Positions 8,703 to 53,534 of a DNA stretch of 64,000 nt are shown piece by piece (positions within the stretch are counted from its first letter, which is position 1; each line of letters begins with the position of its first letter). The stretch covers positions 3,237 through 67,236 of the forward strand of contig JABINZ010000192.1 of NCBI GenBank assembly GCA_018698135.1, in the 5' to 3' direction. This DNA is from Bacteroidota bacterium. Lineage in GTDB: Bacteria; Bacteroidota; Bacteroidia; CAILMK01; JAAYUY01. The notes beneath the pieces were generated by a model, which searched no databases, was not told the origin of the DNA, and saw only the letters and a program-made list of their open reading frames with translations. The position numbers were made by a program, and so were the translations under genes.

Positions 8703-10700
8703 TTAGTTCATCAGCTTCCTAAACTCATTCAATTCGGAATTTGAAGGATATTTTTGATTCAATAAACTGTAATACTCCTTTGCACGCAAAATTTCTCTCC
8801 TGCTGATGTATAGTTTTAACAAGTTTAAATGAGCATTAAAATAATCTGGATCAATCCGTAATGCAGCATTGAAGTTTTTTTCAGCTGCTGGAAAATTATT
8901 ACTTATTAAATTTATAAAACCAAGATTATTATGCGCAATTGGAATCTTTGGATTCTCCGTAATAATAAATTCAAACTCTCTCTGAGCTTCGGCATATTTC
9001 TTTTTTAGGAGATATTCAGTACCCAGTTTATTTCGGTAATCAAGATTATAAGGCTGCTGATTTACTGCGATTGAAAAATATTGAATAGCCTTGTCGATTA
9101 ATTTCAAATAATGATACGACTGCCCAATCTGATAATTCATCACTGGATTTTCAAACACTTCATTCTTTACGTTTTTTTCAGTCAGTTGAATTATTTTGTT
9201 GTAGTTCTGTGCTAAAAAATAGTAGTAAATCCACCATTCAACAATTTCAATTTCCGAATACTTTTTAAAATAAAAGCTGGCTGAATCCAATAAGGAAGGA
9301 TCTGGATTAAACTTTTCAAAATGATACAAATAAGCCCTACCTATTGTTAAATTATCAGGATTACTATTGGTCATGCACTTTAAACCAAGAAATGCACCTG
9401 TTTCAATTTCATCAGTACTTTTTATCTCTTTTTTCCATTTATCCGTAACCCTTATATAATGATCAGAGATTCGCACATGTGGAATATCGAAAACACCGGT
9501 TTTTACCATATGACAAGTCATGCAGTTGTCGTTTTGCTTATTTCTTTCCAAAAAGCTTTCCTGACATACAAGCTTATTATCCGTATTATGACAGCTCATA
9601 CATTGATTTCGAAAAGTATCTATGGGTGTTTCTTTATAACTGATATGTCGCATAGATGCCGTAAAATGACATTTTGTACAGGTCAAAGGTTTGAAATCGG
9701 GATGATTTTGAGTAGCAAGAAAACACTTGCTTCTTTGAAGTCGTTCGGGATGTGTTTCCATCCAAAAAGCGTCCTCTTCATTTTCATACTTTTCTCTGAA
9801 AACATCCATAACTTCGGTTAAATACATGCCGGGTTTAAAGTCATAAAAATCTTTTCCTTCTTTTAAAACAGCATTTCCTTGCGTATGACATCTTGCGCAA
9901 AGTTCAAATTGCAAATCAGCTGATAATCGTTTTGGATTAACAATGGTGAAGTCAGCCTGCAGATCAGTATTCACAACCCTCCCTGATTTCATTGCTTCCA
10001 CATGCAATTCTCCAGGGCCATGGCATCTTTCACAATTAATTCCTAAAGGGATTTCTTCGTATTTATTTAACGAACCTTTGACTGGAGTTGGATAGGAATT
10101 ATGACATGTAATGCATTCGTGACCAATTATTCGACTAAATCGGGCATTATTACCTCCTTCAAAACCTGGGGGAAAATCCAATAAACTGATTTGAGTGTAG
10201 TACGTAAAAGGAACCTGAAAAAGATAGCCATTTACACTTTGGATATGCGAATTGGTATGCTGACCCGAACCAACAATGTAATCCACTATTTCTGTTCGCT
10301 CATATATTGTGTCTCCTTCTTCAACTCTGTACTCCTTGAGCATCATTAGCCCATTGTTCCAAAAAGGCTGATAATAGTAGTTTGACTTAGAGTCGTACAA
10401 AGGCAGATGTGGATTAAAAACAGATGCACTTTTTTCTTTGTTTGCAGCTCCCCATGAATGTCCCATGCCCGTTTGCATATAGGCTTTCCACATATCTAAA
10501 TGACATTCTTTGCAAGCCTCAATACCAACATATTCCACCGAATCGTGTAGATTAAGGAAACCCAAACTGTATACCAGTTCCTCGTCTGAAGAGTGCAGTA
10601 CTTCAAGCTCAGTTCTTTTCTGAGTCAAGGTAACAAAGAGTATTACAGCAATTGAAAAAAAGCCATAAAGAGGCAGCAAATATTTCTGTTTTTGGATCAA
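8703..10700 (-). CDS. Membrane-anchored multiheme (7x CxxCH) c-type cytochrome fused to C-terminal TPR repeats
   Basis: 665 aa; N-terminal TM; heme motifs CKECH, CITCH, CERCH, CARCH, CTKCH, CMSCH, CMTCH; C-terminal ~190 aa TPR-like (AEAQREFEFIITENPK...AHNNLGF..., AEKNFNAALRIDPDYFNAHLNL). Confidence 0.8.
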   Translation of the reverse strand: MIQKQKYLLPLYGFFSIAVILFVTLTQKRTELEVLHSSDEELVYSLGFLNLHDSVEYVGIEACKECHLDMWKAYMQTGMGHSWGAANKEKSASVFNPHLPLYDSKSNYYYQPFWNNGLMMLKEYRVEEGDTIYERTEIVDYIVGSGQHTNSHIQSVNGYLFQVPFTYYTQISLLDFPPGFEGGNNARFSRIIGHECITCHNSYPTPVKGSLNKYEEIPLGINCERCHGPGELHVEAMKSGRVVNTDLQADFTIVNPKRLSADLQFELCARCHTQGNAVLKEGKDFYDFKPGMYLTEVMDVFREKYENEEDAFWMETHPERLQRSKCFLATQNHPDFKPLTCTKCHFTASMRHISYKETPIDTFRNQCMSCHNTDNKLVCQESFLERNKQNDNCMTCHMVKTGVFDIPHVRISDHYIRVTDKWKKEIKSTDEIETGAFLGLKCMTNSNPDNLTIGRAYLYHFEKFNPDPSLLDSASFYFKKYSEIEIVEWWIYYYFLAQNYNKIIQLTEKNVKNEVFENPVMNYQIGQSYHYLKLIDKAIQYFSIAVNQQPYNLDYRNKLGTEYLLKKKYAEAQREFEFIITENPKIPIAHNNLGFINLISNNFPAAEKNFNAALRIDPDYFNAHLNLLKLYISRREILRAKEYYSLLNQKYPSNSELNEFRKLMN

Positions 10701-16104: not shown

Positions 16105-16725
16105 ATGATTAAAAAAATAATCAAAAAAGCAGAGTATATTTCAAGTCAGCCAACATGGAAAACATTAGTATTTGAAAAAAGTCATGAATATGCTTTTATT
16201 GGGCGGTCTAATGTTGGAAAATCATCACTGATAAATGCCTTGTGTGATAAGAAAAAGTTAGCACTGGTTTCAAAAAAACCCGGTAAAACAAAAATGCTTA
16301 ATTTGTTCAGGATCAATGATGCATGGAATTTAATGGATTTACCTGGCTATGGTTATGCAAAAGCATCTAAAACTGATCGAGTTGGATTTCAGGAAATGTT
16401 GAGTGATTATTTCAATAATCGCAAAAACTTGGTCAATGTGTTTGTGCTGGTGGATCCCAATATTCCTCCGCAAAAAATTGATATTGATTTCATCAACTTT
16501 CTGGGTGAAAATGTAGTGGCTTTCGCAATTGTGTATACCAAAACGGATAAAAGTACATTGAACAAAATCAATCAAAACATACAGGCATTCGAAAGAGAAC
16601 TGCTAAAAGAGTGGGAAGAACTCCCCCCTTCTTTCCGTACATCAGCAAATACCAAAGATGGAATTGAAAAGATAACCAGTTATATTGATCAACTCAATAA
16701 GGAAGTTGAATTGTTGAAGGATTAA
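16105..16725 (+). CDS. engB: Ribosome biogenesis GTP-binding protein YihA/YsxC/EngB
   Basis: 206 aa; G1 GRSNVGKSS, G3 DLPGYGY, G4 TKTD. Confidence 0.85.
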   Translation: MIKKIIKKAEYISSQPTWKTLVFEKSHEYAFIGRSNVGKSSLINALCDKKKLALVSKKPGKTKMLNLFRINDAWNLMDLPGYGYAKASKTDRVGFQEMLSDYFNNRKNLVNVFVLVDPNIPPQKIDIDFINFLGENVVAFAIVYTKTDKSTLNKINQNIQAFERELLKEWEELPPSFRTSANTKDGIEKITSYIDQLNKEVELLKD

Positions 16726-16831
16726 GAAATTGCTAAACTGTTAAATTGCTAAACTGTTAAATTGTTATATTGTAGAATTGCTTTGCTTCCTATTCGTCAT
16801 TGCGAATGGAACGAAGTGGAAAGACGCAATC

Positions 16832-18271
16832 TCATCGATAAATCTGAATAGTTTGAATTCGGTGTTTCCCAATTAAAGGAGTAACTTTTACAATGTATGT
16901 TCCTTTGTTTAGCTTTTCGATATTTATTCTGTGCCATTTTTCATGTAAATCAGTAACATGATAAAGCCTGTCTCCACTTACTGAAAACAATTCAATTTCA
17001 CCAATGCTTAAATCCAAATGATAAGACTGTATGTACAGATAGGTAGTAGCAGGATTGGGATAAATCAAAAAGTCCCGTATAAAATCTACCTCAATGTCTG
17101 TTGAACCACATTTCTTTACTAAAATCTGATAGGCACGACTAGAAGTTGCCTCCATAGTACAAGCGTCATCGACAACAGAAACTGAAAAACTATAGGGTAT
17201 AGTGCTTATATCTGTAGTAGTTGTTGCCCATAAAAAAGTTCCTGTAGGATGCTTTGTTTGATTATTATTATCAGACCAATGTACACCAGCAATTTTGTTA
17301 TTTAAAGTTAGCCTTAATGTATCCTTTGAATCATAATCATTTGAATGAATAATAAACTTAGCTGTATCTCCTCCACAAACCTCTTTGTAATATGGACCCG
17401 ACAATACAGGAGGATTGTTATTCGGACAACTCAGAACAATGAATTGAAAAATTCTGTTTACAAGTCCAAGTCGAGTAGCACCACGATATACAGATGCTTC
17501 AACCATAAAAACCGTAGTCTGAATTTTCATGGGTCGAAAACGTAATTTCTGCGATTGCGCATGCAAAACAAAACCTCTGGGAAATGGATATTGATCTGGA
17601 AACCCCCAATAGTAAATAGGTTTACTATAACTATAGTTATCGCTGTAGCTAATTGGATGCCCTGTATTTGCAGGTATTTCTTTCATGGAATAGACAATGG
17701 AATCATACTCCTTTTCATTTGAGCATGCCAAATCAACTTCAATATCTCGTCCGATGCAGAAAATCTGAGTAGGCAAAGATTGAAAGTCTGGCGAATTTAC
17801 TTTAGACTTCAAACAAATATTTATCCTGGACTCCAATACAGCAGCCTGCCCCTCTTTTAGGGTCATAATATTTTTATTGAAAAACAGGTCGTCAACTCGC
17901 AGGATAATTTCACATTCTGTTGGTAATCTTTGTATGACTAAAACACCCTGGTATATACATTCCTGAAAACCAAAAGGAAAAGAACATGATAAATTATCAC
18001 AACGCGTACAGCAATGCTTGCAAACGGGTGTTACATCTTTTGTTGCAACCTGTTCTAGGATTATCTTTTTAGCCAAAGCACCCGATTTTGCATAATTTAC
18101 AGACAACAGTTTTTGCTTGAACTCTTCTTCATTGCAATCCCTGTAAAGTTTTGCCTCAATTAAAAAACTATCCTGCCCTATTTGTGTCCAGCCTATTTCG
18201 CCAGCCATAAAACTAGCTTTTGCCAAAAACCCAGTAGTAATCAATAATAAGGTTAAAAGTAAATTTTTCAT
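16832..18271 (-). CDS. Secreted T9SS cargo protein, paralog A: signal peptide, Cys-rich N-terminal domain shared with the next three genes, type-A T9SS C-terminal sorting domain
   Basis: 479 aa; N-terminal GEIGWTQIGQDSFLIEAKLYRDCN, SYSKPIYYWGFP, FRPMKI, YQILV blocks shared with paralogs B-D; C-terminus IYPNPA...KGTYIVKV... resembles a Por_Secre_tail. Confidence 0.7.
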   Translation of the reverse strand: MKNLLLTLLLITTGFLAKASFMAGEIGWTQIGQDSFLIEAKLYRDCNEEEFKQKLLSVNYAKSGALAKKIILEQVATKDVTPVCKHCCTRCDNLSCSFPFGFQECIYQGVLVIQRLPTECEIILRVDDLFFNKNIMTLKEGQAAVLESRINICLKSKVNSPDFQSLPTQIFCIGRDIEVDLACSNEKEYDSIVYSMKEIPANTGHPISYSDNYSYSKPIYYWGFPDQYPFPRGFVLHAQSQKLRFRPMKIQTTVFMVEASVYRGATRLGLVNRIFQFIVLSCPNNNPPVLSGPYYKEVCGGDTAKFIIHSNDYDSKDTLRLTLNNKIAGVHWSDNNNQTKHPTGTFLWATTTTDISTIPYSFSVSVVDDACTMEATSSRAYQILVKKCGSTDIEVDFIRDFLIYPNPATTYLYIQSYHLDLSIGEIELFSVSGDRLYHVTDLHEKWHRINIEKLNKGTYIVKVTPLIGKHRIQTIQIYR

Positions 18272-18302
18272 CTGATGAAAATATTTATGTTGATTTCAAA
18301 AT

Positions 18303-21194
18303 CTATTCTATTAATATTCGCCTACTAAGCTGAAATTCATTCAAATCCAACTGAAGAAAGTAAATTCCTTGTTTCAGACCAATAACATCTATTGTACAAG
18401 GTAATTTAGCATTATTATCCGACAACACTTTCATACCTACGGTATTAAATATTGAAATTGATTGACAATTAGTAATTTTTCCAACATCAATGAATAACTT
18501 ATCTGATACTGGATTGGGATAAATTGTAACGAATTGTTCGTGATTTTCATGTAGCGAGCTGAAAACTTCTATCAATTGCTCTTTTGTCAATTCACCAATA
18601 CAGGTTGAATCACTGATAGCTATTAGTTTTACATCCAGCAATCCTTGATTAAGATAAGTATGAGATGGATGCTCGAAAAACGAACTATCTCCATCACCAA
18701 AATACCATAAATAATTAGTAATTATACCAGAGCTTATACTACTTTGATTTATAAACTGAACCTGCAAAGGCAGAGTTCCTGTATCTTTATCAGCTACAAA
18801 GTCTACAATCGGTAGAGGATTCAAATTAAAATAGATTTCCTTGCTATTTGCACAACCATTGGAATCACTAACTTTATATACTAATGGGTTCGTTGAATTT
18901 GATTTAGATGGATTGAAAAAATGATCAAAACCAATTCCTGTGCTACCACTCCAAATTCCTCCATCAGGCGAAACATAAGGTTCCAAGTCAAGGTATTCAT
19001 CTTCATCGCAAAAACTAAATGCTTGAATAATATTGATTTTAGGATAATCTTTTATCGCAACAGTTGTTTTGTCGAAAGTGAAACAATGGGTTGCTGTATC
19101 TGTATAGGAATAGAATAACAAGTAAGATTTTGCATCGGCTTTATTAACTCTTAACACATTATTCTTAACAAGTATGGTATCCTGACCATACCAGATTCCT
19201 CCTTTTGGAGATACAAAACTATCAAGAGCCAGATTTTCATCATTCAGGCAAATATCTGGAATAGGTAAAAAGTTAATCTTGGGTTCTTTGTCGTAAAAAA
19301 CTATTATAGTGTCTTTATCCTTACAGCCATTTTCATTAATCGCTTCACAACTAAAAGTACCGGGCATGTAAACAATAATACTTTCTGTATGTCCTTTGGG
19401 GCAAGTGCAAGACAAATCCAGCCAATTAAAAGATGAAATTATATGACCTTCATCAAATTGGGGTGTAGCACTCAGTTCTACTGGATTACCAGGGCAGGTA
19501 ATTGTATCCTGAGATAGAGAAATATTGAAGTCATCGACTTTAATCCACATGCTATCTGTATCGGAAAACATTGAATCTCTTACTTCTAAAATTACAAGTG
19601 TATCCTTTACCAAAGAATTTAGTTGCAAAAAAGATGTTGAATCTCCAGTACTCCATATATAACTGACATGGCTAAGTGAGTCCGAAACTATAGGAGTAAT
19701 TGAAATGCTCCCATTCTTACAAATTACTGTGTCATTCGGTAATTCAACTTTAATTTTTTTCAGAATTTCTAACGTATCAAAATAAGCTTTTGTACATCCA
19801 CTTCCTTCCACTTCCAATCTGATTGGATATGAGCCAATACTATTTATAATTAAAAAATAATCAGCATTCGACTTTACATGCTTGTTATTAACATACAATT
19901 TGTAGGATATGACACTTTTTGTATTGATTGCTTTTAATTCATATTTATTTATTCCAACATGTAAGATCTCTATTTCGGCCTTTGGTGAAGGTTCAACATA
20001 TATCAAATAAGATTTTGAGGATTGCCCATAAGCTGGACACTTATTGTCATATATCTGTAACGTAAGCGTATAAGGGTTTACAGAAATATCTGAGCTATCT
20101 GTTTGCCAATATAAAGTACCACTTGCTTTCCTAGTTGTTAAATTGTTATCTGACCATGTGCTCCCTGCTGGTTTTTGAATTAATTTATATTGAACAGTAT
20201 CATGGAAGTCAGTATCAGTATATAAAACTGGTAGTACTAGATTATTACCTGCACAAATTCGTAATGTGTTTAAGTTAGAAAATCGAGGCTTATTATTTTG
20301 AGGACATGAAATAACCTGAAAAGCTATGTCTCGATTAACTTCCCCTATTTTCACATACACTCCACTAATTTTTCGCCATTCAATTACTTTTAACATTAAG
20401 AATGTGCTTTCAATTTTCATTGGTCGAAATTCGATATCTCCAGTTTGCTTGTTAAGACGAAAGCCAGTACCATGTGGTAATGTGGCATTTGCATTTGGGA
20501 ATCCCCAGAAATACAATGGTTTATCATAACTATAACTGCCCGAATAACTTATAGTAGTACCATAACTATTACGTGGTTGGTTAAGCTCATACGAAATTGA
20601 ATCCGACAAATTGCCGATGGAATCTCTATCCTGATCATTTGCTCCAATATTGTAATGAAAATCAGTACCAATACAACCTAATAAGATAGGATCATTCATT
20701 AATTGTGGGCTATTATCGCAAGGACTTAAACATCGATTTAATACTGAATAAACAAAAACGCCTACTCCTCCACTGGATAAATTTGATGTGCCAACTCTTG
20801 AATCCCCATAGTTCTCAAACCTGATTTCACAAATACTACCAACATTTCCAAGATAAACTACTTTGAGGGCAATCTTTTTTTCTATTCCATATGGAAAAGT
20901 TGAATTACCATTACACCTTGAATCAATGCTTGAACAAATGGGAGTAATATCAACTGTAGAAGAAAATGCTAATGATTCAGACCTGATCAACGTGTTAGTA
21001 CTATGATCTCTAATATTAAGTGTATTTGTTGAACCTTGAATCCCATTACAATCTCGATAATAAGTATACTTAACCAAAAAACTATCCTGACCCACACAAG
21101 TCCAAGTAATATCAGAACCATATTGATGGGTGGCTTTTGCAAAAAAACTTAAGGATACAATTAATAAAACAAAAAACAACTTTCTCATAATCAT
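18303..21194 (-). CDS. Secreted T9SS cargo protein, paralog B: Cys-rich N-terminal domain, Ig-like/PKD region, type-A T9SS C-terminal domain
   Basis: 963 aa; signal peptide; N-domain DITWTCVGQDSFLVKYTYYRDCNG, SYSYDKPLYFWGFP, FRPMKI; PKD motif WYFGDGDSS...HTY; C-terminus IYPNPVS...GIYFLQL...; 4-bp start/stop overlap with paralog C. Confidence 0.75.
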   Translation of the reverse strand: MIMRKLFFVLLIVSLSFFAKATHQYGSDITWTCVGQDSFLVKYTYYRDCNGIQGSTNTLNIRDHSTNTLIRSESLAFSSTVDITPICSSIDSRCNGNSTFPYGIEKKIALKVVYLGNVGSICEIRFENYGDSRVGTSNLSSGGVGVFVYSVLNRCLSPCDNSPQLMNDPILLGCIGTDFHYNIGANDQDRDSIGNLSDSISYELNQPRNSYGTTISYSGSYSYDKPLYFWGFPNANATLPHGTGFRLNKQTGDIEFRPMKIESTFLMLKVIEWRKISGVYVKIGEVNRDIAFQVISCPQNNKPRFSNLNTLRICAGNNLVLPVLYTDTDFHDTVQYKLIQKPAGSTWSDNNLTTRKASGTLYWQTDSSDISVNPYTLTLQIYDNKCPAYGQSSKSYLIYVEPSPKAEIEILHVGINKYELKAINTKSVISYKLYVNNKHVKSNADYFLIINSIGSYPIRLEVEGSGCTKAYFDTLEILKKIKVELPNDTVICKNGSISITPIVSDSLSHVSYIWSTGDSTSFLQLNSLVKDTLVILEVRDSMFSDTDSMWIKVDDFNISLSQDTITCPGNPVELSATPQFDEGHIISSFNWLDLSCTCPKGHTESIIVYMPGTFSCEAINENGCKDKDTIIVFYDKEPKINFLPIPDICLNDENLALDSFVSPKGGIWYGQDTILVKNNVLRVNKADAKSYLLFYSYTDTATHCFTFDKTTVAIKDYPKINIIQAFSFCDEDEYLDLEPYVSPDGGIWSGSTGIGFDHFFNPSKSNSTNPLVYKVSDSNGCANSKEIYFNLNPLPIVDFVADKDTGTLPLQVQFINQSSISSGIITNYLWYFGDGDSSFFEHPSHTYLNQGLLDVKLIAISDSTCIGELTKEQLIEVFSSLHENHEQFVTIYPNPVSDKLFIDVGKITNCQSISIFNTVGMKVLSDNNAKLPCTIDVIGLKQGIYFLQLDLNEFQLSRRILIE

Positions 21195-24067
21195 TCAATT
21201 AGTATTCGCTTTTGAAACTGATTCTCATTTAATTCTATCTGAAGAAGATAAACGCCTGGTTTAAAAGTACTAACATTAATTGTACAAGGAAGTGTTTTTT
21301 CGTTTTGAGAGAACACTTTTTCGCCTAGGGTATTAAATAAGGAAATTGATTGACTGATAGTAGTTTTTCCCAAATCAATAAATAAACTTTGTGAGACAGG
21401 ATTTGGATAGATTTGCACAATTTGATCAGGATGTTTACCTAATGAACTAAATACCTCTATCAATTGCTCTTTTGTCAATTCACCAATACAGCTTGAATCA
21501 CTGATAGCAATTAGTTTTACATCCAGCAATCCCTGATTTAGATAAGTATGAGTTGGATGCTCGAAAAACGAACTATCTCCATCACCAAAATACCATAAAT
21601 AATCAGTAATTATACCAGAGCTTATGCTACTTTGATTGGAAAACTGAACCTGCAAAGGCAGAGTTCCTGTATCTTTATCAGCAACAAAATCTACAATCGG
21701 TAGTGGATTCAAATTAAAATAGATTTCCTTGCTATTTACACAACCATTGGAATCAGTAACTTTATAAACTAATGGTTTCGTTGAATTTGCTTTGGATGGA
21801 TTGAAAAAATGATCAAAACCAATTGCTGTGCTACCACTCCAAATTCCTCCAACAGGCGAAATATAAGGCTCCAAATCATAGTATTTGTCTACATTACAAA
21901 AACTAAAGGCTTGAATCATATTGATATTAGGATAATCTTTTATCTCAACAGTTGTTTTGTCGAAAGTGAAACATTGTGTGGTTGTATCTGTGTAGGAATA
22001 AAAAAGCAAATAATGTTTAGCTTGTGCTTTATTTACCTGCAACATATTGTTTTTAACAATAATAGTATCCTGACCATACCAGATTCCTCCTTTTGGAGAT
22101 ACAAAACTATCGAGAGCCAGATTTTCATCATTCAGGCAAATATCTGGAATCGGCAAAAAGCTAAGCTCAGGTTCTTTATCATAAATAACTACAATTGTAT
22201 CTTTGTCCATACAGCCATTTTCATTAATCGCTTCACAACTAAAAGTACCTTGCATATAAACGATAATACTATCGGTGTGTCCTTGTGGGCATGTGCAAGA
22301 CAAATCCAGCCAACTGAAAGATGATACTATTTGGCCTTCATCAAATTGCGATGTAGCTCTCAGTTCTACTGGATTACCAGGGCAGGTAATTGTATCCTGA
22401 GAAAGTGAAATACCAAAGTCATCGACTTTAATTAATATAGAATCCTCATCACTACAGCCATCGGTATTTGAAGTTGATAAATGAAAGTAAGTATCTTTAA
22501 ATAAGGGTATCGTATTTAGATAAGAGTTCGTATCCCCTCCTATCCACAAATAGGATAGTGGTGAGCTTGTTCCTATAACTTTGCTTTGAATTTGAATACT
22601 ATCTCCCATGCAAATAATAGTATCTATTGGCAATTCAACTTTAAGGACATTTTGGACATTAAAAGTATCAACAGACTTCTGCACACACCCAAATTGATCT
22701 TCGACTATAATATCCAAGGGATACAATCCACTTTGATTAAAATCCAAAGAACATTTGAAATTTTGTGAGATTGTGTCTCCATTTATAAGCCAATTAACAA
22801 TAGCTGCAGGAACTTTTTTATAATTATACTCAAGTATGTATTTGCCGCAATTTTGATCAAGAATAGTAAATCCGGGTTTCAAATTTGAAGATCTTACCCT
22901 TATCTGCACTTTTTTGTAATCATGTCCATTTATAGGACAATGTTGATCGTGTGCATTGACAACGAAAGTATAGGGAATAGAACTTACTTGTTGCTCTGAT
23001 GGCACCCAGTTTAAAACTGCCAACAAACTATCTTGGGAATATTTTGTTATTGACCATTGAACACCTGATGCAAATGAATCCAACATCAATGTAAGTGAAT
23101 CATTTATATCCTTATCATAGACCATATAGCTTAATTGTATTGTATCGCCTACACAAATTTCTTCATAATAATCGCCAGTAATAATAGGTAAGTTATTTCC
23201 CGTACAAGACATAACAATTAGTTGATGATCTCTAATGGTTTCGGCAATTTTAATCCATGTATTGTTTACTTTTTTAAATCTTTTAACTTTTACGGCAACA
23301 ACAGTTTGTTCAACTTTTTGCGGATTAAATAATAAAAATCCATTTCTGTTATCCATATGAATACCTTTCGGCAAATAATTATTTTTTTGAGGGAAGCCCC
23401 AAAATGAAATAGGCTTGTCATAAGAATATGAGCCAGAATAAGTGCAATTATCTGTCAGTTCATAGGAAACAGAATCTGTTGTTGAATTTGCTACAATATC
23501 ACTTTGCGCACTTATTTGATAATTGAGTAAACTATTTTGATTTAAGCAGATTAAAGTAGTGGGATCATCGGCAAATTCCATGGAGGCATTTATTGGAAAT
23601 AAACATCTATCAAGTTTAGCATTAAGATATAAAATGTCATTGCTCGATGCTCCAGTTGTAATATTATCACTTCTGCAACACATACTGGCACTAATCAATA
23701 AGTTGCAACAACTTCCAGCATTAGATAATACAAATAATTTTACATACTCAAATTTTGAAATACCATATGGAAAAGTACAAAATTGAGGGTGTGTGCATTT
23801 ATTGCATGAAGAAGCACAAGTAGGTGTAATATCAGTTTCTGCGGGTTGTGTAATAGTTTCTGAAGCCAATAATGCACCGGTCTCACACTTGATAGTAACC
23901 GTTAGATTACTTGGGAACAATGTGGCACATTCTCGATATAGAGTTGTAGTAATCAGAAAACTGTCCTGACCAACACAGCTCCATTCAATTTCGCCTCCGG
24001 TAATATGAATGGCTTTTAAAGAGAAGCTTGCTAAAATAATGGATAAGATTAAAAGTAATTTTTTCAT
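21191..24067 (-). CDS. Secreted T9SS cargo protein, paralog C: same architecture as B
   Basis: 958 aa; N-domain GGEIEWSCVGQDSFLITTTLYRECA, SYSYDKPISFWGFP; ~340 aa ~90% identical to paralog B ending in the PKD motif; type-A CTD. Confidence 0.75.
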   Translation of the reverse strand: MKKLLLILSIILASFSLKAIHITGGEIEWSCVGQDSFLITTTLYRECATLFPSNLTVTIKCETGALLASETITQPAETDITPTCASSCNKCTHPQFCTFPYGISKFEYVKLFVLSNAGSCCNLLISASMCCRSDNITTGASSNDILYLNAKLDRCLFPINASMEFADDPTTLICLNQNSLLNYQISAQSDIVANSTTDSVSYELTDNCTYSGSYSYDKPISFWGFPQKNNYLPKGIHMDNRNGFLLFNPQKVEQTVVAVKVKRFKKVNNTWIKIAETIRDHQLIVMSCTGNNLPIITGDYYEEICVGDTIQLSYMVYDKDINDSLTLMLDSFASGVQWSITKYSQDSLLAVLNWVPSEQQVSSIPYTFVVNAHDQHCPINGHDYKKVQIRVRSSNLKPGFTILDQNCGKYILEYNYKKVPAAIVNWLINGDTISQNFKCSLDFNQSGLYPLDIIVEDQFGCVQKSVDTFNVQNVLKVELPIDTIICMGDSIQIQSKVIGTSSPLSYLWIGGDTNSYLNTIPLFKDTYFHLSTSNTDGCSDEDSILIKVDDFGISLSQDTITCPGNPVELRATSQFDEGQIVSSFSWLDLSCTCPQGHTDSIIVYMQGTFSCEAINENGCMDKDTIVVIYDKEPELSFLPIPDICLNDENLALDSFVSPKGGIWYGQDTIIVKNNMLQVNKAQAKHYLLFYSYTDTTTQCFTFDKTTVEIKDYPNINMIQAFSFCNVDKYYDLEPYISPVGGIWSGSTAIGFDHFFNPSKANSTKPLVYKVTDSNGCVNSKEIYFNLNPLPIVDFVADKDTGTLPLQVQFSNQSSISSGIITDYLWYFGDGDSSFFEHPTHTYLNQGLLDVKLIAISDSSCIGELTKEQLIEVFSSLGKHPDQIVQIYPNPVSQSLFIDLGKTTISQSISLFNTLGEKVFSQNEKTLPCTINVSTFKPGVYLLQIELNENQFQKRILIE

Positions 24068-24071
24068 AGGG

Positions 24072-25772
24072 CTATTTTATTAAAATACGCTTCCAATATT
24101 TTTCAGTTTGCGTATCAAGTTGAAGGATGTATACTCCTGTATTTAATGAGCTTATGTCCAATAAATAGGGTAAATTAGTTTTTGATTTTTGCAATACAGT
24201 TTCGCCTAAAGAATTGAAAACACTAATTGCTCGAATAACTTCAGGATTTTCAAACTTTAACAGGATTTGTTCACCTGCTGGATTTGGATAAACCACTAAT
24301 TTTTTTGCTTTTACTGGAGATATCGACACATTGGTATCATAAACTAAAGTATCAAAATAAATGCGCTGACATTGCTGAGTTTCAACCTGCAGCGTATATG
24401 GATATTTCCCTGGTTTATCAAATTTATAATGCATGGAAGGTCCGGCAAAAACAAATCCCGGATTGAAATTCCCAACCCATGTGTAAGAAGGATTCTTTCC
24501 AACAATCGTTTTTGCATGAAAATAATAAAGACCTCCTCCACTGTCAATTTTGGTATGTTCTGCTTCTGGCAGAGGTTTTACTAAAATTTGATAGGCTCTT
24601 GTTGCACTCCCATTTACCGGACATGCATCATCTTTTACTGTAACCGTAAAAACATAAGGAATGTCACTGGCATCTTCTTTAGCAGGTGTCCAAGAGAGCG
24701 TTCCTGTTGGATGTTTTACTACTTTATTATTATCATTCCATAAAGCTCCTGAAATACTTCCATTCCAGCTTATCAATAAAGTATCTTTTGAATCGTAATC
24801 ATTTGTGTGAATACTGAAGTGTACTGTAGAAGTAGCACATGTTTCTTTATAATAGGGCCCAGCTAAAACAGGTGCATTGTTTTTTGGACATTGAATTACA
24901 ATAATGGCAATTTCGCGGGTGGTCTCACCAATAATTTTTTGCCCATTACGGAACTCAGTCACTTTCTCTGCCATAGATGAAAAGCCAAAAGAATCCGGTC
25001 TGAATTGAATTCCACCACAAATTTGATCCAAATGAAATCCTCTAGGAAATGGTAATTTCTCATTTGGATATCCCCAAAAATACATGGATTTATCAAATGT
25101 AAATGGACTATTATAGGTAACAATAGCAGTAGATGATATTTTTGGAGCCACCCACTCATATGATAGGGAATCGAGTAAGCCTCCACTTCCTCCAACATCA
25201 ATATCTACAACTCCATGGCAAAAAACAAAATCCTGATCTTTACAAATAATAGCAATGGGAGGATTCGTAAAACTCGGGGAATTATCACATGGAGAAATAC
25301 ATCGGTTTAACCATGCTTCCAAATGAAAAGGACTATTTCCCTGAATATTTGTGAATGCTTTACTTCTGCAACAAGCTGTATACGACATACTAATTTCGCA
25401 ACAACTAACTGAACTTGGTATTACAATCAACTTTGAATAAGTGTATTGTTCGATACCATATGGAAAAGTACTGTTGGGATCCTGACAACGTGTTGAAGTT
25501 GCTCCACAAGTTGGTGTAATATCAACCGGAGGTGGTTTCATTATTGTAAGGTTTTGAATTAAAGTGCCTGTTGATTTACACTTAATAGGCATTTGAATAG
25601 AATCTGGCATTGCAGCTTGATTGCAATCTTTATACAAGACCATTTTAATTATAAAACTATCGGAACCTATACACGTCCAGGTAATATCACCTCCAAGATA
25701 GCCAGTTTGTGCTTTTACAAAAAATGATAAAGAGATAAATAGAGCAAGTGCTAGAAAAGTCTGTTTTTTCAT
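24072..25772 (-). CDS. Secreted T9SS cargo protein, paralog D (start placed at the internal Met 'MKKQTFLALALF' signal peptide, not the longer ORF start at 25892)
   Basis: N-domain GGDITWTCIGSDSFIIKMVLYKDCN, FTFDKSMYFWGYP, FRPDSF, YQILVK; C-terminus VVYPNPAGE...GVYILQL... type-A CTD; 4 bp from paralog C. Confidence 0.7.
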   Translation of the reverse strand: MKKQTFLALALFISLSFFVKAQTGYLGGDITWTCIGSDSFIIKMVLYKDCNQAAMPDSIQMPIKCKSTGTLIQNLTIMKPPPVDITPTCGATSTRCQDPNSTFPYGIEQYTYSKLIVIPSSVSCCEISMSYTACCRSKAFTNIQGNSPFHLEAWLNRCISPCDNSPSFTNPPIAIICKDQDFVFCHGVVDIDVGGSGGLLDSLSYEWVAPKISSTAIVTYNSPFTFDKSMYFWGYPNEKLPFPRGFHLDQICGGIQFRPDSFGFSSMAEKVTEFRNGQKIIGETTREIAIIVIQCPKNNAPVLAGPYYKETCATSTVHFSIHTNDYDSKDTLLISWNGSISGALWNDNNKVVKHPTGTLSWTPAKEDASDIPYVFTVTVKDDACPVNGSATRAYQILVKPLPEAEHTKIDSGGGLYYFHAKTIVGKNPSYTWVGNFNPGFVFAGPSMHYKFDKPGKYPYTLQVETQQCQRIYFDTLVYDTNVSISPVKAKKLVVYPNPAGEQILLKFENPEVIRAISVFNSLGETVLQKSKTNLPYLLDISSLNTGVYILQLDTQTEKYWKRILIK

Positions 25773-26005
25773 AAGATTTCTGTTTATTGATAAGAAATTT
25801 TTCACTACAAGCATAAGAGAAATGAGTTTTACCTTTTCAGGAAAATTCGTATTAACATCCTTTAGTATATATGTCAGACCAAAAGTAACCATTAAACATA
25901 AAATATTTGTTTAATTTTACAATCAGACAATTTGTTAAAAAATGTCAAAATTATTCTGCTGGCATATCATTTGCCAATTTGATTCTTGATTTAAAATAAA
26001 AAAAC

Positions 26006-27457
26006 ATGAATAAAATAGGGAAACAACTAATACTACTCTTAATTGCAGGGATTTTAGGTGGAATAATTGGCGTTGGAATTGTCATGTCAATTGATAATAA
26101 TGACAAGAATACCGATGGCAACAAACCAGGCAATCTTACTAATTTTACAGTCGACCAAATTACAATACCCACATTCGATTTTTCAGTTATAGCCGAACAC
26201 ATTACACCAACTGTTGTTCATATCAAAACAACGATTGATGCTAGTTCAGTTGAAAATCCACATAAAGGCAATCCATTTTTTGAGTTCCTTGATCCAAAAA
26301 TGTTTAAATATCCACAATCAGGAAGTGGCTCAGGTGTTATCATATCATCTGATGGCTATATTGTGACAAACAATCATGTTGTAGCTGATGCAGATAAAAT
26401 TGAAGTAAGCTTATACGATAAAAGAACTTACATGGCTGAAGTAATTGGTAAAGATCCACAAACCGATTTAGCTTTAATAAAAATAGATGCCAAGGACTTA
26501 CCAATTTTAGACTATGGAAATTCGGATGAATTGAAAGTTGGTGAATGGGTGCTAGCACTTGGAAATCCTTTTAATTTAAACTCGACTGTAACCGCTGGTA
26601 TTGTTAGTGCCAAAGCCAGAAGCATTGGAATATTAGGTGGTGGTTCTGCAATAGAATCATTTATTCAGACTGATGCCGCAGTAAATCCCGGGAATAGTGG
26701 AGGAGCCTTAGTAAATGTGGAAGGAAAACTTGTTGGCATTAATACAGCTATTGCTTCCAGAAGTGGGCAATATGAAGGTTATTCATTTGCTGTGCCTTCA
26801 AATATTGTTATTAAGGTTATTAATGATATTAAGAAATATGGAAAAGTACAACGCGGTTTACTTGGTGTAAATATTTCTGAAGTAACTACTGAAATTGCCA
26901 AGGATAACAAATTGGATAAACCTATAGGTGTATATATTCAGGATGTTGTTGCAGAAGGTGCTGCAAAAGAAGCTGGAATAAAAAAGGGCGATATAATAAT
27001 AAAAATCAATGACAGGAAAGTAAACTCAGTGCAAGCTTTGCAAGAAGAAGTTTTCATTAACAGACCTGGAGATAAAATTGACGTCACTTTAATCAGAAAC
27101 GGAAATGAAAAAGTATTTAGTGTAACTCTTAAAGATTTCAAAGGCAATGAAGAAATTGTTATTGATAAAACAGATGAATTAAGACGTGAACTAGGTGCTG
27201 AATTTGCTGAGTTAACTGCAAAAGAAAAAGCCAGAATGGGTCTTGAGAATGGAGTTCGGGTGAGTAATGTTTCCAGTGGAAAAATGAAATCTGCAGGCAT
27301 TCCTAAAAACTTTGTGATCACGAAAATTGATCGAAAAAGAGTCATTAAAATTGAAGATGTATATGAATTTCTTGGAAGTGCCAAAGATGGCGTACTTATT
27401 GAAGGAATTGAACCTGATGGTTCAAAAGCATATTATGGCTTTGGATTAAGTGATTAG
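26006..27457 (+). CDS. htrA: Periplasmic serine endoprotease DegP/HtrA/DegQ (trypsin-like domain plus two PDZ domains)
   Basis: 483 aa; N-terminal TM/signal, catalytic triad context (TNNHVV; DLALIKI; GNSGGAL), two PDZ-like regions. Confidence 0.9.
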   Translation: MNKIGKQLILLLIAGILGGIIGVGIVMSIDNNDKNTDGNKPGNLTNFTVDQITIPTFDFSVIAEHITPTVVHIKTTIDASSVENPHKGNPFFEFLDPKMFKYPQSGSGSGVIISSDGYIVTNNHVVADADKIEVSLYDKRTYMAEVIGKDPQTDLALIKIDAKDLPILDYGNSDELKVGEWVLALGNPFNLNSTVTAGIVSAKARSIGILGGGSAIESFIQTDAAVNPGNSGGALVNVEGKLVGINTAIASRSGQYEGYSFAVPSNIVIKVINDIKKYGKVQRGLLGVNISEVTTEIAKDNKLDKPIGVYIQDVVAEGAAKEAGIKKGDIIIKINDRKVNSVQALQEEVFINRPGDKIDVTLIRNGNEKVFSVTLKDFKGNEEIVIDKTDELRRELGAEFAELTAKEKARMGLENGVRVSNVSSGKMKSAGIPKNFVITKIDRKRVIKIEDVYEFLGSAKDGVLIEGIEPDGSKAYYGFGLSD

Positions 27458-27664: not shown

Positions 27665-28030
27665 CTATACTTCAAAACTAATTTTCACCCTATCCAATAC
27701 TAAATTGATATCACCAAGTTCTTTATTTTTAAAGCGAATGATTCTATATCCCAAATTCTTTAAAACTGCTTCTCTATCTTGATCATATTCCATTTGGAAA
27801 TCGTGAATCTTACCATCTAATTCAATAATCAATTTATACTCTGCACAATAAAAATCAACAATATAAAACTCTGGTTGGGTTGAGTCTTTTATCACAATTG
27901 GATGCTGTCTGAGAAACTTCTTTCCTCCGAGTTTTCTATTTCTTAGAATGTTCCATAGTATTTTTTCAGCTGGAGTTTGATTTTTCCTCAAATCTCGAGC
28001 TGTGTTTTTTATAGCGTCCCATTTATTCAT
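27665..28030 (-). CDS. DUF559 (Vsr/MutH-like PD-(D/E)xK endonuclease domain) protein
   Basis: 121 aa; typical DUF559 blocks (QTPAEKILWNILRNRKLGGKKFLRQHPI; DFYCAEYKLIIELDGKIHDFQ...D.DR...L...GY...RF.N); sits exactly between the two MITE-like copies. Confidence 0.75.
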   Translation of the reverse strand: MNKWDAIKNTARDLRKNQTPAEKILWNILRNRKLGGKKFLRQHPIVIKDSTQPEFYIVDFYCAEYKLIIELDGKIHDFQMEYDQDREAVLKNLGYRIIRFKNKELGDINLVLDRVKISFEV

Positions 28031-51863: not shown

Positions 51864-51962
51864 AAACTTTTCTTTTTTTTGTAACAGAATAACAACCAAA
51901 GTATAATATTTGTTTATTTTGTGGTGTTATTATTCAAATCATTCCCTTTAATGCAAACTATA

Positions 51963-53534
51963 ATGCGAAAAATAATTTTATTGCTAGTCTTTTTTTCCAT
52001 CTTGCTGAACTTATCCGCTCAGCAGAAATACAGGGTTTATTTCAAAGATAAAGCTGGGGTTGAATTCAACCCTGAGGCTTATTTTGATCAAAAAGCAATC
52101 GACAGAAGAATTAAACATGATGTTTCATTGTATGATCCAAGCGACTTCCCGTTAAATCAAAATTATGTAGGCCAGGTTAGGGAAATAGCAGATGCAAGCG
52201 GTTTTGAATCACGTTGGTTTAATTTTGTTTTAGTGGATGTTTCGAATCAAAAACAGTTAGATGACTTAAGAAAACTGGATTGCGTGGCTAAGATGGAGCA
52301 ATCCATAAAAGTCGAAATACTGTATACTGCCGAAACTGAATTCAGTGATGAGTATTACGATGAAGAGCTCATGAAAAACCAAACAGAACGTTTTGGTGGA
52401 AGCTTGTTGAAAGAAAAGGAGTTAGATGGAACAGGGGTTCGGATCGCTATTTTTGATGGTGGATTTCCAGAGGTAAATACACATCCGTCTTTCACTCATA
52501 TCATTAATCAAAACCGACTAGTTGCCACCTGGGATTTTATCAAAAACAAGGAAAATGTTTTTTATGGCAATAATCATGGTCGAATGACTTTTGCTTGTGT
52601 TGGTGGTTTTTGGAAAGAAAACAACATTGGACTGGCTACAGGTGCTGAGTATATGTTAGCTAAAACAGAAATCGGCACAGAACCTTTTGCTGAAGAAGAA
52701 TACTGGATGGCAGCTGCCGAATGGGCTGATAAAAATGGAGCCGATATTATTAATAGTTCCTTGGGTTATGGTCACCATCGCTATTTCACCAATGATATGG
52801 ATGGAAAAACTAGTTTGGTGGTAAAGGCAGCTCATATGGCTGCAAGAAAAGGGATTTTAGTCGTTAATTCAGCAGGAAATGAAGCAACTGACAGCTGGGA
52901 AACAATTATTACTCCAGCTGATGGAGACTCTGTATTGGCAGTTGGAGGAATTGATCCTGATCTCGATTATCACATTTCTTTTAGCTCATATGGACCTACG
53001 GCAGACAAGCGAATGAAACCCAATGTTTCAGCTTTTGGTCATGTGGTTACAGCCGACAAAAAAGGATTAAAAGAAGTAGATGGAACCTCATTCTCATCCC
53101 CCCTAACAGCAGGATTTGCAGCTTGTATATTGCAACACAATCCTGGTTTTACCAATATGGATTTGTTTTATGAGTTGGAGAAATCAGGACACCTCTACCC
53201 ATATTTTGACTATGCGCATGGATATGGCGTTCCACAAGCATCCTATTTTTTAGATGCAGATAAAAAACCAATTCAGCAAACATTTGAATTTATTGAAGAA
53301 GATGATAAATTGATTGTTCGGGCAATTTTAGAAAACTACAACAATAAAAATGCGACAAACAGCAATCATCTTTTGTATTATAACATGGAAGGAGAAGACG
53401 GTATTCTTGAGTCCTATTATGTTGTTGAAGTCTCACAAGAAGTAGTTCTTGAATTTGATCGGACAGAGATGGATGCAACTCCCAAAACGATCAATGTACA
53501 TTTTAGAGGATTCAGCTCTCATTATAAATTTTAA
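51963..53534 (+). CDS. Secreted S8-family (subtilisin-like) serine peptidase; start at signal-peptide Met 'MRKIILLLVFF'
   Basis: Catalytic D (VRIAIFDGG), H (NNHGRMTFAC) and S (DGTSFSSPLTAG) blocks. Confidence 0.85.
   Translation: MRKIILLLVFFSILLNLSAQQKYRVYFKDKAGVEFNPEAYFDQKAIDRRIKHDVSLYDPSDFPLNQNYVGQVREIADASGFESRWFNFVLVDVSNQKQLDDLRKLDCVAKMEQSIKVEILYTAETEFSDEYYDEELMKNQTERFGGSLLKEKELDGTGVRIAIFDGGFPEVNTHPSFTHIINQNRLVATWDFIKNKENVFYGNNHGRMTFACVGGFWKENNIGLATGAEYMLAKTEIGTEPFAEEEYWMAAAEWADKNGADIINSSLGYGHHRYFTNDMDGKTSLVVKAAHMAARKGILVVNSAGNEATDSWETIITPADGDSVLAVGGIDPDLDYHISFSSYGPTADKRMKPNVSAFGHVVTADKKGLKEVDGTSFSSPLTAGFAACILQHNPGFTNMDLFYELEKSGHLYPYFDYAHGYGVPQASYFLDADKKPIQQTFEFIEEDDKLIVRAILENYNNKNATNSNHLLYYNMEGEDGILESYYVVEVSQEVVLEFDRTEMDATPKTINVHFRGFSSHYKF

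What the first reader, a model, noticed from the sequence alone, without database searches (positions are those of the whole stretch)
16832..25892. Four-gene tandem array of paralogous T9SS cargo proteins sharing an unassigned Cys-rich N-terminal domain
Four consecutive minus-strand genes (479, 963, 958 and ~566 aa) are packed with 4-31 bp spacing or overlaps. All four start with a signal peptide plus a ~350-aa domain carrying the same conserved blocks (G-D/E-I-T/E-W-T/S-C-V/I-G-Q/S-DSF...YR-D/E-C; ITP.C...C; SYSYDKP.YFWGFP; FRPMKI; YQILV) and many conserved cysteines, and all four end in a type-A T9SS sorting domain. I could not match the N-terminal domain to any named family. The N-terminal domains are ~30-40% identical to each other, which suggests diversification of a secreted cell-surface module. 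The array is transcribed divergently from htrA.
Basis: partly seen in the sequence, partly recalled or inferred. Interest (0 to 1): 0.7.

Follow-up and report, generated by a model that had tools for sequence, protein, structure and literature searches.

The report
Tandem array of secreted adhesin-like proteins

Summary
There are four tightly packed minus-strand genes of 479, 963, 958 and 566 aa. Each has a signal peptide, a shared ~375-aa N-terminal region (27-41% identical between paralogs) and a type A T9SS sorting domain above the curated cut-offs.

The N-region is not one domain and not catalytic. AlphaFold2 (pLDDT 87) gives three beta-sandwiches:
- A is Cys-rich, ~140 aa, with no named family and only generic Ig/Fn3-like fold matches.

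The module is not rare. A profile finds 12,713 protein clusters, 3,256 of them at E<=1e-30. It almost always sits directly after the signal peptide, fused to PKD, SprB or laminin-G modules and to type A or type B T9SS tails. All members carry generic names.

Copy number varies. A syntenic relative has two genes in the same htrA-engB slot, and other relatives have three-gene arrays elsewhere. The genes are mosaics: the C-terminal halves of G2 and G3 are 86% identical in DNA, while their N-modules are ~36% identical.

The best reading is C-terminally anchored adhesin-like proteins with diversifying N-terminal tips. This is a new member of a known kind, of modest interest.

The parts
24072..25772 (-). 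G4: 566-aa T9SS type A cargo. Layout: signal peptide, domains A-B-C, a degenerate PKD-like domain, then the CTD. It is the first gene of the array.
   Evidence: ORF. The 566-aa form is identical to deposited P0001. Por_Secre_tail 49.6 bits; Big_9 22.4 bits, just under its cut-off, at domain C; PKD sub-threshold.
21191..24067 (-). G3: 958-aa T9SS type A cargo. Layout: signal peptide, A-B-C, ~390 aa of unassigned Cys-containing repeats, PKD, CTD.
   Evidence: PKD_4 52 bits, Por_Secre_tail 49 bits. It has no close ortholog in the syntenic relative L016.
18303..21194 (-). G2: 963-aa T9SS type A cargo with the same architecture as G3.
   Evidence: Its N-module is 56% identical to the second gene of the syntenic locus L016.
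16832..18271 (-). G1: 479-aa T9SS type A cargo (signal peptide, A-B-C, CTD). It is the most divergent paralog and has lost several Cys pairs.
24573..25712 (-). N-terminal A-B-C module of G4 (residues 21-400). Domain A is 25284-25700, B is 24888-25283, C is 24573-24887.
   Evidence: tblastn self-hit. AF2 model pLDDT 87.4, pTM 0.79. Domain limits come from the secondary structure and from hhalign.
22892..23998 (-). N-terminal A-B-C module of G3.
   Evidence: tblastn with the G4 module: 34% identity, E=3e-72.
19989..21119 (-). N-terminal A-B-C module of G2.
   Evidence: tblastn with the G4 module: 37% identity, E=1e-70.
17114..18223 (-). N-terminal A-B-C module of G1.
   Evidence: tblastn with the G4 module: 35% identity, E=9e-77.
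18305..19544 (-). C-terminal half of G2 (repeats + PKD + CTD), 85.7% identical in DNA to the matching part of G3.
   Evidence: blastn: G2 nt 1651-2890 against G3 nt 1636-2875. dN/dS 0.24, dS 0.43.
21193..22432 (-). C-terminal half of G3, the partner of the G2 segment above.
24075..24293 (-). Type A T9SS sorting domain (CTD) of G4.
   Evidence: PF18962 49.6 bits, TIGR04183 50.2 bits.
21194..21412 (-). Type A CTD of G3.
   Evidence: PF18962 49.4 bits, TIGR04183 45.6 bits.
18306..18524 (-). Type A CTD of G2.
   Evidence: PF18962 45.1 bits, TIGR04183 38.7 bits.
16835..17065 (-). Type A CTD of G1.
   Evidence: PF18962 38.0 bits, TIGR04183 29.6 bits.
25773..26005 (.). Divergent intergenic region between G4 and htrA, presumed to hold the promoter of the array.
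   Evidence: Sequence read. The generic sigma-70 scan is uninformative. A TAnnTTTG-like motif (TACTTTTG) lies ~105 bp upstream of the 25772 start; this is my own reading of the sequence and is only a lead.

Best explanation
The four genes encode non-enzymatic, adhesin-like cell-surface proteins of a T9SS-bearing Bacteroidota bacterium.

Proposed pathway:
1. Each protein is exported by Sec, using a signal peptide with an x-K-A cleavage site.
2. It folds in the periplasm into a string of beta-sandwich domains.
3. It is recognised through its type A C-terminal domain, passed through the T9SS translocon, and the CTD is cut off by the PorU sortase.
4. The new C-terminus is most probably linked to anionic LPS.

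The protein would then be held by its C-terminus, with the conserved N-terminal three-domain module projecting outward as the distal tip. That module is domain A (a disulfide-stapled, Cys-rich sandwich) followed by two cadherin-like domains B and C. The tip would be the ligand-recognition part. The PKD and Ig-like repeats of G2 and G3 would act as a longer stalk.

The array grows, shrinks and is reshuffled by duplication and by recombination at domain boundaries. This gives the cell several tips of different specificity or antigenicity on short (G1, G4) or long (G2, G3) stalks.

What is shown: gene structure, CTD membership, the fold class, the family size and N-terminal position of the module, copy-number variation and mosaicism. 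What is inferred: secretion, anchoring, binding function and the ligand.
For: - Type A CTDs are above the curated cut-offs in all four genes. The T9SS type A pathway with PorU cleavage and A-LPS attachment is described in PMC10202324.
- Signal peptides are visible in the sequences: MKK..., a hydrophobic stretch, then (L/F/V)KA.
- The AF2 model of the G4 module has pLDDT 87.4 and pTM 0.79, is all-beta and has three sandwiches.
- B and C are homologous to each other: hhalign E=2.4e-4 over 95 columns. Sub-threshold profile hits point the same way: Big_9, He_PIG, Cadherin_4 and desmoglein.
- No catalytic family is found by Pfam, NCBIfam or fold search.
- Cys columns co-occur in pairs across 168 family members (phi 0.5-1.0), and the Cys losses in G1, G2 and G4 follow those pairs. 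This is as expected for real disulfides in exported proteins.
- The module starts at median residue 27, and at or before residue 60 in 166 of 188 instances. This is consistent with a distal tip on a C-terminally anchored protein.
- Family partners are PKD, SprB repeats, Laminin_G_3 and Ig_7. Tails are type A in 99 and type B in 21 of 145 representatives.
- Copy number varies. The syntenic slot htrA<->engB holds 2 genes in L016 against 4 here. Three-gene arrays occur at other loci in L013 and L015.
- Mosaicism: the G2 and G3 C-halves are 86% identical in DNA and under purifying selection (dN/dS 0.24), while their N-modules are ~36% identical. G1 against P0003 is 99.6-100% identical up to the B/C boundary, then 70% and 48%.
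Against: - No member of the family has been characterised experimentally. Names are all generic and literature searches found nothing on the module.
- No ligand-binding site can be named.
- The T9SS core genes are not in the window, so secretion competence is inferred only from the CTDs and from another CTD protein nearby.
- Type A cargo can be released instead of anchored (PMC10202324).
- All cadherin-type sequence matches fall below family thresholds, and the Ca-binding motifs are only partly present.
- The structures are predictions from a shallow alignment of 18-19 sequences.
Confidence: 0.65

Rival explanations
1. The proteins are released, soluble T9SS cargo. After PorU cleavage they would diffuse away and bind or sequester something in the medium (polysaccharide, metal, other cells) and would not act as anchored adhesins.
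For: A substantial subset of type A CTD cargo is released and not A-LPS-anchored, and the rule that decides this is unknown (PMC10202324). G1 and G4 are short, with no stalk.
Against: The N-terminal position of the module is conserved and it is fused to long PKD, SprB or Ig stalks. Both features fit a displayed tip better than a soluble binder. Nothing here discriminates directly.
Confidence: 0.15
2. They are gliding-motility adhesins of the SprB/RemA type. In that case they would be loaded on the gliding track and propelled along the cell surface.
For: Family members are labelled 'gliding motility-associated-like protein' by one source. A relative (P0035) combines the module with SprB repeats, and 21 of 145 relatives carry the type B (CHU_C) tail typical of SprB-like adhesins. 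RemA uses a type A CTD (PMC10202324).
Against: The four genes have no SprB repeats and no lectin domain. There is no PorP/SprF-like neighbour, since the flanking genes are housekeeping. G1 and G4 are very small for motility adhesins. The 'gliding' label derives from the CTD family name, not from experiment.
Confidence: 0.1
3. Domain A is a functional (catalytic or inhibitor) domain. It could, for example, be a macroglobulin-like protease trap or a carbohydrate-active accessory module, and B and C would be only spacers.
Against: Those hits are to non-catalytic accessory sandwiches, at 5-14% identity. No thioester motif, catalytic triad or enzyme family is detected. The family's most conserved residues are Cys, Gly, Pro, Asp and aromatic residues, which is typical of a structural scaffold.
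Confidence: 0.05
4. The array is mainly a surface-variation device. Paralogs with different tips would be expressed alternately to escape phages, grazers or competitors that recognise them, and binding would be secondary.
For: Copy-number variation and modular mosaicism are seen between strains and paralogs. Metagenome contigs repeatedly break inside the array.
Against: There are no invertible-promoter-type inverted repeats, no simple-sequence tracts and no silent cassettes in or around the array. The gene spacing suggests co-transcription of all four genes. The C-halves are under purifying selection.
Confidence: 0.05

Closest known systems
T9SS type A CTD cargo proteins (PF18962 / TIGR04183), e.g. 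the surface-anchored adhesin-type effectors reviewed in PMC10202324, including RemA of Flavobacterium johnsoniae
   Same: Signal peptide plus a C-terminal type A sorting domain above threshold in all four genes. Multi-domain beta-sandwich passenger region. PKD domains in G2 and G3.
   Different: The passenger's N-terminal A-B-C module is not in any characterised cargo that I could find. No lectin, peptidase or glycosidase domain is present. Secretion and anchoring are not shown for these proteins.
Bacterial cadherin-like / He_PIG / Big_9 Ig-domain adhesins (e.g. the cadherin-like modules of the staphylococcal adhesin SraP, PDB 4m00/4m02) and eukaryotic cadherin EC domains
   Different: All sequence-profile matches are below the family cut-offs. 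B carries a ~26-residue insertion (SYSYDKPxYFWGFP...PRGFHLD) and a Cys177-Cys295 staple that is not typical of cadherins. Ca2+ binding is untested.
'Gliding motility-associated C-terminal domain' (CHU_C, type B CTD) proteins of Cytophagia and Chitinophagia that begin with H-I-x-G-G-E...YRDC...QRCCR
   Same: They have the same N-terminal module, as distant branches of the same family: P0020 Microscillaceae, and P0021/P0022 plus 120 Chitinophagaceae relatives. The module is likewise placed directly after the signal peptide.
   Different: They carry a type B sorting domain instead of type A. They are only 22-25% identical to G4. The subfamily in the window has extra Cys pairs and the domain B insertion.
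Clustered protocadherin / Dscam loci (analogy only)
   Same: Several variable N-terminal Ig/cadherin 'tips' are combined with a nearly constant C-terminal part. The G2 and G3 C-halves are 86% identical while their tips are ~36% identical.
   Different: Here the variants are separate complete genes produced by duplication and recombination, not alternative exons. There is no evidence of homophilic recognition.

Membership tests
T9SS type A cargo | C-terminal Por_Secre_tail / TIGR04183 domain scoring above the curated cut-off | tested here: met
   PF18962 scores 38.0, 45.1, 49.4 and 49.6 bits against a cut-off of 27. TIGR04183 scores 29.6, 38.7, 45.6 and 50.2 bits against a cut-off of 23. In all four genes the domain sits at the extreme C-terminus.
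T9SS type A cargo | N-terminal Sec signal peptide | tested here: met
   By inspection only, as no predictor is available. Each protein has a basic n-region, a 12-15-residue hydrophobic core and an x-K-A site before the conserved mature N-terminus. In the family the module starts at median residue 27.
T9SS type A cargo | Genome encodes the T9SS core and attachment complex (SprA/Sov, PorV, PorU, PorZ, GldK-N) | not testable with these tools
   None of these genes was seen among the window ORFs scanned. The only indirect support is a second CTD protein (LTD + CHU_C) at 45092-47689.
T9SS type A cargo | T9SS-dependent export, CTD removal and A-LPS linkage | not testable with these tools
   This needs experiment. 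The mechanism is taken from PMC10202324.
Cadherin-like / Big_9 / He_PIG bacterial Ig domains (domains B and C) | Profile match above the Pfam gathering score | tested here: not met
   Big_9 scores 22.4 bits against a cut-off of 23.6 on G4 domain C. He_PIG and Cadherin_4 appear only as sub-threshold hits in relatives. Desmoglein-2 gives E=0.14.
Cadherin-like / Big_9 / He_PIG bacterial Ig domains (domains B and C) | Seven-strand Greek-key beta-sandwich superposable on cadherin EC domains | tested here: met
Cadherin-like / Big_9 / He_PIG bacterial Ig domains (domains B and C) | Inter-domain Ca2+-binding motifs (DxD, DxNDN, xEx) | tested here: inconclusive
   Conserved D192 and D201-S202 (98% and 95%), and DNSPxF / NNxPV linkers, resemble but do not reproduce the canonical set. 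Metal binding is not testable here.
PKD domain (G2, G3) | PKD_4 / PKD profile above the gathering score | tested here: met
   G2 PKD_4 41.8 bits and G3 52.1 bits, against a cut-off of 27. The G4 match is sub-threshold at 16.9-19.7 bits.
SprB/RemA-type gliding adhesins | SprB repeats or RemA lectin domain; for SprB, a type B CTD with an adjacent sprF/porP gene | tested here: not met
   No SprB repeat or lectin domain is present, the CTD is type A, and the neighbours are engB, gcvP, ubiE and htrA.
Catalytic T9SS cargo (peptidase, glycoside hydrolase etc.) | A recognisable catalytic domain by profile or fold | tested here: not met
   No Pfam or NCBIfam catalytic family is found. The NF038113 M36 peptidase hits cover only that model's CTD positions 782-869. 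The fold searches return only beta-sandwich accessory or adhesion domains.
Unnamed 'A-B' N-terminal module family of Bacteroidota T9SS cargo (defined here by profile A2) | Full-length match to the 269-position A-B profile directly after the signal peptide, with the conserved Cys framework | tested here: met
   G1-G4 score 328-409 bits over profile positions 1-269. There are 12,713 library hits, 3,256 of them at E<=1e-30. The Cys pairs co-vary.

The most novel reading that the evidence does not exclude
Domain A, together with the modified cadherin-like domain B, would define a major and so far undescribed class of N-terminal 'tip' recognition modules. These would be used across Bacteroidota on both type A and type B T9SS cargo.

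Arrays like this one would be cassette systems. Recombination at domain boundaries would re-assort divergent tips, with their variable disulfide patterns, onto conserved stalks. That would tune what the cell sticks to, or what can recognise the cell.

If a defined ligand class emerged (algal glycans, other cells, phage), thousands of 'hypothetical' or 'PKD domain-containing' surface proteins of marine and soil Bacteroidota would gain an annotation.
Probability: 0.2. Interest if true: 0.55.

Novelty: new member of a known kind. Interest (0 to 1): 0.3.

Why it matters
T9SS cargo make up much of the cell surface of Bacteroidota, the main particle- and polysaccharide-degrading bacteria of oceans, soils and guts, and many of these proteins are annotated only by their sorting tail.

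This work shows that the 'unassigned' head of the four proteins is a three-domain Ig/cadherin-like tip. The tip recurs in more than ten thousand protein clusters, always at the N-terminus. That gives a concrete target for a new domain-family definition and for binding studies.

The two-versus-four gene difference at one chromosomal slot, and the mosaic genes, also illustrate how such surface repertoires evolve. For this window the practical message is modest: these are ordinary adhesin-like surface proteins, not a new enzyme or system.

Tried and rejected
- **Known catalytic domain.** Rejected. Pfam, NCBIfam, PDB sequence search and fold searches give nothing catalytic.
- **Rare, lineage-restricted family.** The first word-indexed search suggested this, with only 22 hits. 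The exhaustive profile search rejected it, with 12,713 hits.
- **One ~350-aa domain.** Rejected in favour of three domains.
- **Domain A as a diverged copy of B or C.** No support: hhalign gives E=0.047 over 19 columns and E=0.69.
- **Gene conversion between the C domains of G1 and G4 (57% identical).** Rejected. Domain C is simply the better conserved domain family-wide, at 55-75%.
- **Phase variation by an invertible promoter or repeats.** No suitable inverted repeats were found. The sigma-70 and terminator scans were uninformative, with fewer promoter-like sites than in shuffles, and they do not model Bacteroidota promoters.
- **Functional linkage to htrA.** Adjacency is kept only in close syntenic relatives (L007, L016). 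Arrays in L013 and L015 sit elsewhere.
- **afdb50 fold library.** Not available.
- **The search for related loci with the broad alignment.** Failed for lack of a conserved stretch. It worked with a narrower alignment but returned only 6 loci.
- **Literature searches on the module.** Nothing specific was returned.
- **Middle repeats of G2 and G3 (aa ~400-790).** They stay unassigned apart from faint PKD-like hits.
Full report
**Observation**

ORF listing confirms four consecutive minus-strand genes:

| Gene | Coordinates | Length |
|---|---|---|
| G1 | 16832-18271 | 479 aa |
| G2 | 18303-21194 | 963 aa |
| G3 | 21191-24067 | 958 aa |
| G4 | 24072-25892 | 606-aa ORF |

- The 566-aa form of G4, starting MKKQTF at 25772, is identical to the deposited protein P0001.
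- The genes are separated by a 31-bp gap, a 4-bp overlap and a 4-bp gap, so co-transcription is likely. That is an inference.
- htrA (Trypsin_2 + PDZ, 26006-27457) is divergent. engB (16105-16725) is convergent. Further flanks are housekeeping genes: gcvP subunit, ubiE, a NusG-like gene and an epimerase.
- Base composition is uniform across the window at ~33% GC, so nothing marks the array as foreign.

**Sorting signals**

- All four proteins end in a type A T9SS sorting domain above the curated cut-offs. PF18962 scores 38-50 bits against 27, and TIGR04183 scores 30-50 against 23.
- The NCBIfam 'M36 metallopeptidase' hits cover only that model's CTD positions and are not evidence of a peptidase.
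- G2 and G3 also carry a PKD domain just before the CTD. G4 has a sub-threshold PKD-like segment.
- Each protein begins with a typical Sec signal peptide ending in x-K-A, read directly from the sequence.

**The shared N-region**

- Paralog identities are 27-41% in the first two domains and 26-57% in the third.
- tblastn E-values between paralogs are 1e-70 to 9e-77, and there are no further copies in the window.
- No Pfam-A or NCBIfam model covers the first ~300 residues, in these proteins or in 13 relatives scanned.
- Profile searches of PDB sequences find nothing for domains A or A-B. The only hit is a marginal desmoglein-2 match (E=0.14) for the last ~110 residues.

**Structure**

An AlphaFold2 model of residues 25-400 of G4, built on a 19-sequence alignment, has pLDDT 87.4 and pTM 0.79. 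It is all-beta, with strand patterns for three separate sandwiches. I call these A (~25-163), B (~164-295) and C (~296-400).

- Foldseek returns tandem-Ig receptors and adhesion molecules.
- hhalign shows B and C are homologous to each other (E=2.4e-4, 95 columns). B carries a ~26-residue insertion that is exactly the 'SYSYDKPxYFWGFP...PRGFHLD' block.
- A has no detectable sequence relation to B or C.
- Both B and C start with cadherin-linker-like motifs (DNSPxF, NNxPV). Big_9, He_PIG and Cadherin_4 give sub-threshold hits there.

So the 'unassigned Cys-rich domain' is an unnamed Cys-rich sandwich followed by two cadherin-like domains. It is not a catalytic fold.

**Cysteines**

Cys columns co-occur in pairs across 168 family modules. 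In G4 numbering the pairs are:

| Pair | phi |
|---|---|
| 125-158 | 1.0 |
| 93-101 | 0.92 |
| 34-162 | 0.82 |
| 177-295 | 0.81 |
| 89-96 | 0.54 |
| 65-124 | 0.48 |

- There is also a vicinal 134/135 pair.
- The losses in the window's own paralogs follow these pairs. G1 lacks 34+162, 65+124 and 134+135. G2 lacks 65+124, 93+101 and 134+135. G4 lacks 93+101.
- This is what real disulfides in exported, functional proteins would produce. The pairings themselves are inferred, because model coordinates could not be inspected.

**Family size and architecture**

- The word-indexed search found only 22 relatives, all from uncultured Bacteroidota.
- The exhaustive profile search with an A-B alignment found 12,713 cluster representatives at E<=1e-3, 8,991 at E<=1e-10 and 3,256 at E<=1e-30.
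- Some weak hits probably match only the cadherin-like part. One example is a 4,886-aa protein hit 41 times at profile positions 215-249.
- Among the 150 best hits almost all match the full profile. The module starts at median residue 27, and at or before residue 60 in 166 of 188 instances.
- Downstream partners include PKD, SprB repeats, Laminin_G_3 and Ig_7.
- By local HMMs, 99 of 145 representatives end in a type-A-like CTD, 21 in a type-B-like (CHU_C) CTD, and 25 in neither. Many of the last group are fragments.
- A distant branch (H-I-T-G-G-E-M...YRDCN...QRCCR) is common in Chitinophagaceae and occurs in Microscillaceae.
- Every name attached by a source is generic: 'PKD domain-containing', 'T9SS type A sorting domain-containing', 'gliding motility-associated-like' or 'hypothetical'.
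- Three literature searches found no description of the module.

**Comparative context**

- The exact G4 protein occurs on 12 contigs from several marine MAG assemblies (GCA_0186...). Many of these contigs break inside the array, as expected from the G2/G3 repeat.
- In a fully syntenic relative (L016, GCA_042584205.1) the gene order is epimerase - NusG-like - htrA <-> array <- engB - gcvP - ubiE. There the slot holds only two genes. One is an ortholog of G4 (60% in A-B) and one is an ortholog of G2 (56%). G3 and G1 have no counterpart.
- In a Black Sea MAG (L007) htrA is followed by a G4 ortholog. Next comes a 510-aa gene that consists only of the 'C-half' of G2/G3 (58% identical) behind its own signal peptide, with no A-B-C module.
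- Other relatives carry three-gene arrays at unrelated loci. L013 lies between uvrB and glnA and includes an 83-aa remnant of a module. L015 is the other case.
- Copy number and architecture therefore vary. The adjacency to htrA is synteny, not a functional link.

**Mosaicism**

- G2 and G3 share a 1.24-kb C-terminal segment at 85.7% DNA identity. dS is 0.43 and dN/dS is 0.24, which indicates purifying selection. Their N-terminal 550 residues are only 25-50% identical per 50-residue block.
- G1 and a variant from another sample (P0003) are 99.6-100% identical through residues 1-282 (signal peptide, A, B). They are only 70% identical in domain C and 48% in the CTD.
- P0003 comes from a 1.5-kb contig, so an assembly chimera cannot be excluded.
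- Both patterns point to recombination at domain boundaries. No inverted repeats or simple-sequence tracts suggestive of programmed switching were found.

**Mechanism**

Combining the tested features with the established T9SS pathway (PMC10202324) gives this proposal:

1. Sec export.
2. Periplasmic folding and disulfide formation.
3. CTD-dependent translocation.
4. CTD removal by PorU and, most likely, attachment of the new C-terminus to anionic LPS.

The N-terminal A-B-C module would then be the distal end of a surface fibre. Its strict N-terminal position across the family, its faster divergence relative to the stalks, and its Ig/cadherin-like folds argue that it is the recognition end of adhesin-like proteins. 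The ligand is unknown.

Rivals are listed with their tests: released binders, gliding adhesins, a functional domain A, and a pure surface-variation device.

**Verdict**

- The N-module lacks a name but is structurally recognisable and extremely common.
- The finding is a new member of a known kind, namely T9SS-exported multi-Ig adhesin-like proteins in a variable tandem array.
- Interest is modest (0.3). The residual value lies in defining domain A as a family and in testing tip-specific binding.

Noticed in passing
window 18305-19544 and 21193-22432: The C-terminal halves of G2 and G3 are 85.7% identical in DNA, while their N-halves are saturated. MAG contigs that carry the array often end inside this repeat.
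   Followed up: yes
L007 11433-12965: In the syntenic Black Sea MAG, the gene after the G4 ortholog is a 510-aa protein. It consists of a signal peptide fused directly to the 'C-half' (repeats + PKD + CTD) of G2/G3 and has no A-B-C module. This shows that the module can be gained or lost.
   Followed up: partly
window 16832-18271 vs protein P0003: G1 and a variant from another sample are 99.6-100% identical through residue 282. They are then 70% identical in domain C and 48% in the CTD, a sharp breakpoint at the B/C boundary. P0003 comes from a 1.5-kb contig, so a chimeric assembly is possible.
   Followed up: partly
window 45092-47689 (+): An 865-aa protein with Lamin Tail Domains and a type B (CHU_C) T9SS sorting domain. 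The organism therefore appears to use both CTD types. No porP/sprF-like neighbour was seen.
   Followed up: no
window 51921-53534 (+): A 537-aa subtilase (Peptidase_S8). I did not check whether it carries a T9SS tail.
   Followed up: no
window 27665-28030 (-): A DUF559 (endonuclease-like) gene lies between the NusG-like gene and htrA. It is present in L007 but absent from the otherwise syntenic L016, so it is a small variable insertion next to the array.
   Followed up: partly
window 16727-16758: A perfect tandem duplication of a 16-nt unit (AAATTGCTAAACTGTT x2) lies in the convergent intergenic region between engB and G1.
   Followed up: no
window 25773-25892: The mechanical G4 ORF extends 40 codons upstream of the deposited start. 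A Bacteroidota -7-like motif (TACTTTTG) lies inside that extension, which favours the 566-aa start.
   Followed up: partly
L013 6817-7065: An 83-aa ORF between two array members matches only the first ~33 positions of the module (E=2e-10). It is probably a remnant of a decayed paralog.
   Followed up: no
L010 (JBAZMO010000070.1): A contig binned as 'Patescibacteria group bacterium' encodes a full family member (333 bits). Because the other relatives found here that carry an organism name are almost all Bacteroidota, this looks like a binning error.
   Followed up: no
window 8703-10700 (-): A 665-aa protein combines a cytochrome c7-like multihaem region with TPR repeats.
   Followed up: no
G2 residues ~400-790 (window ~18825-19995) and the G3 equivalent: About 390 aa of repeated Cys-containing ~85-aa units (pattern D-T-x-x-C-x-G...GC...D...V) have no Pfam assignment beyond faint PKD-like hits. 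They are presumably further Ig-like stalk domains.
   Followed up: partly
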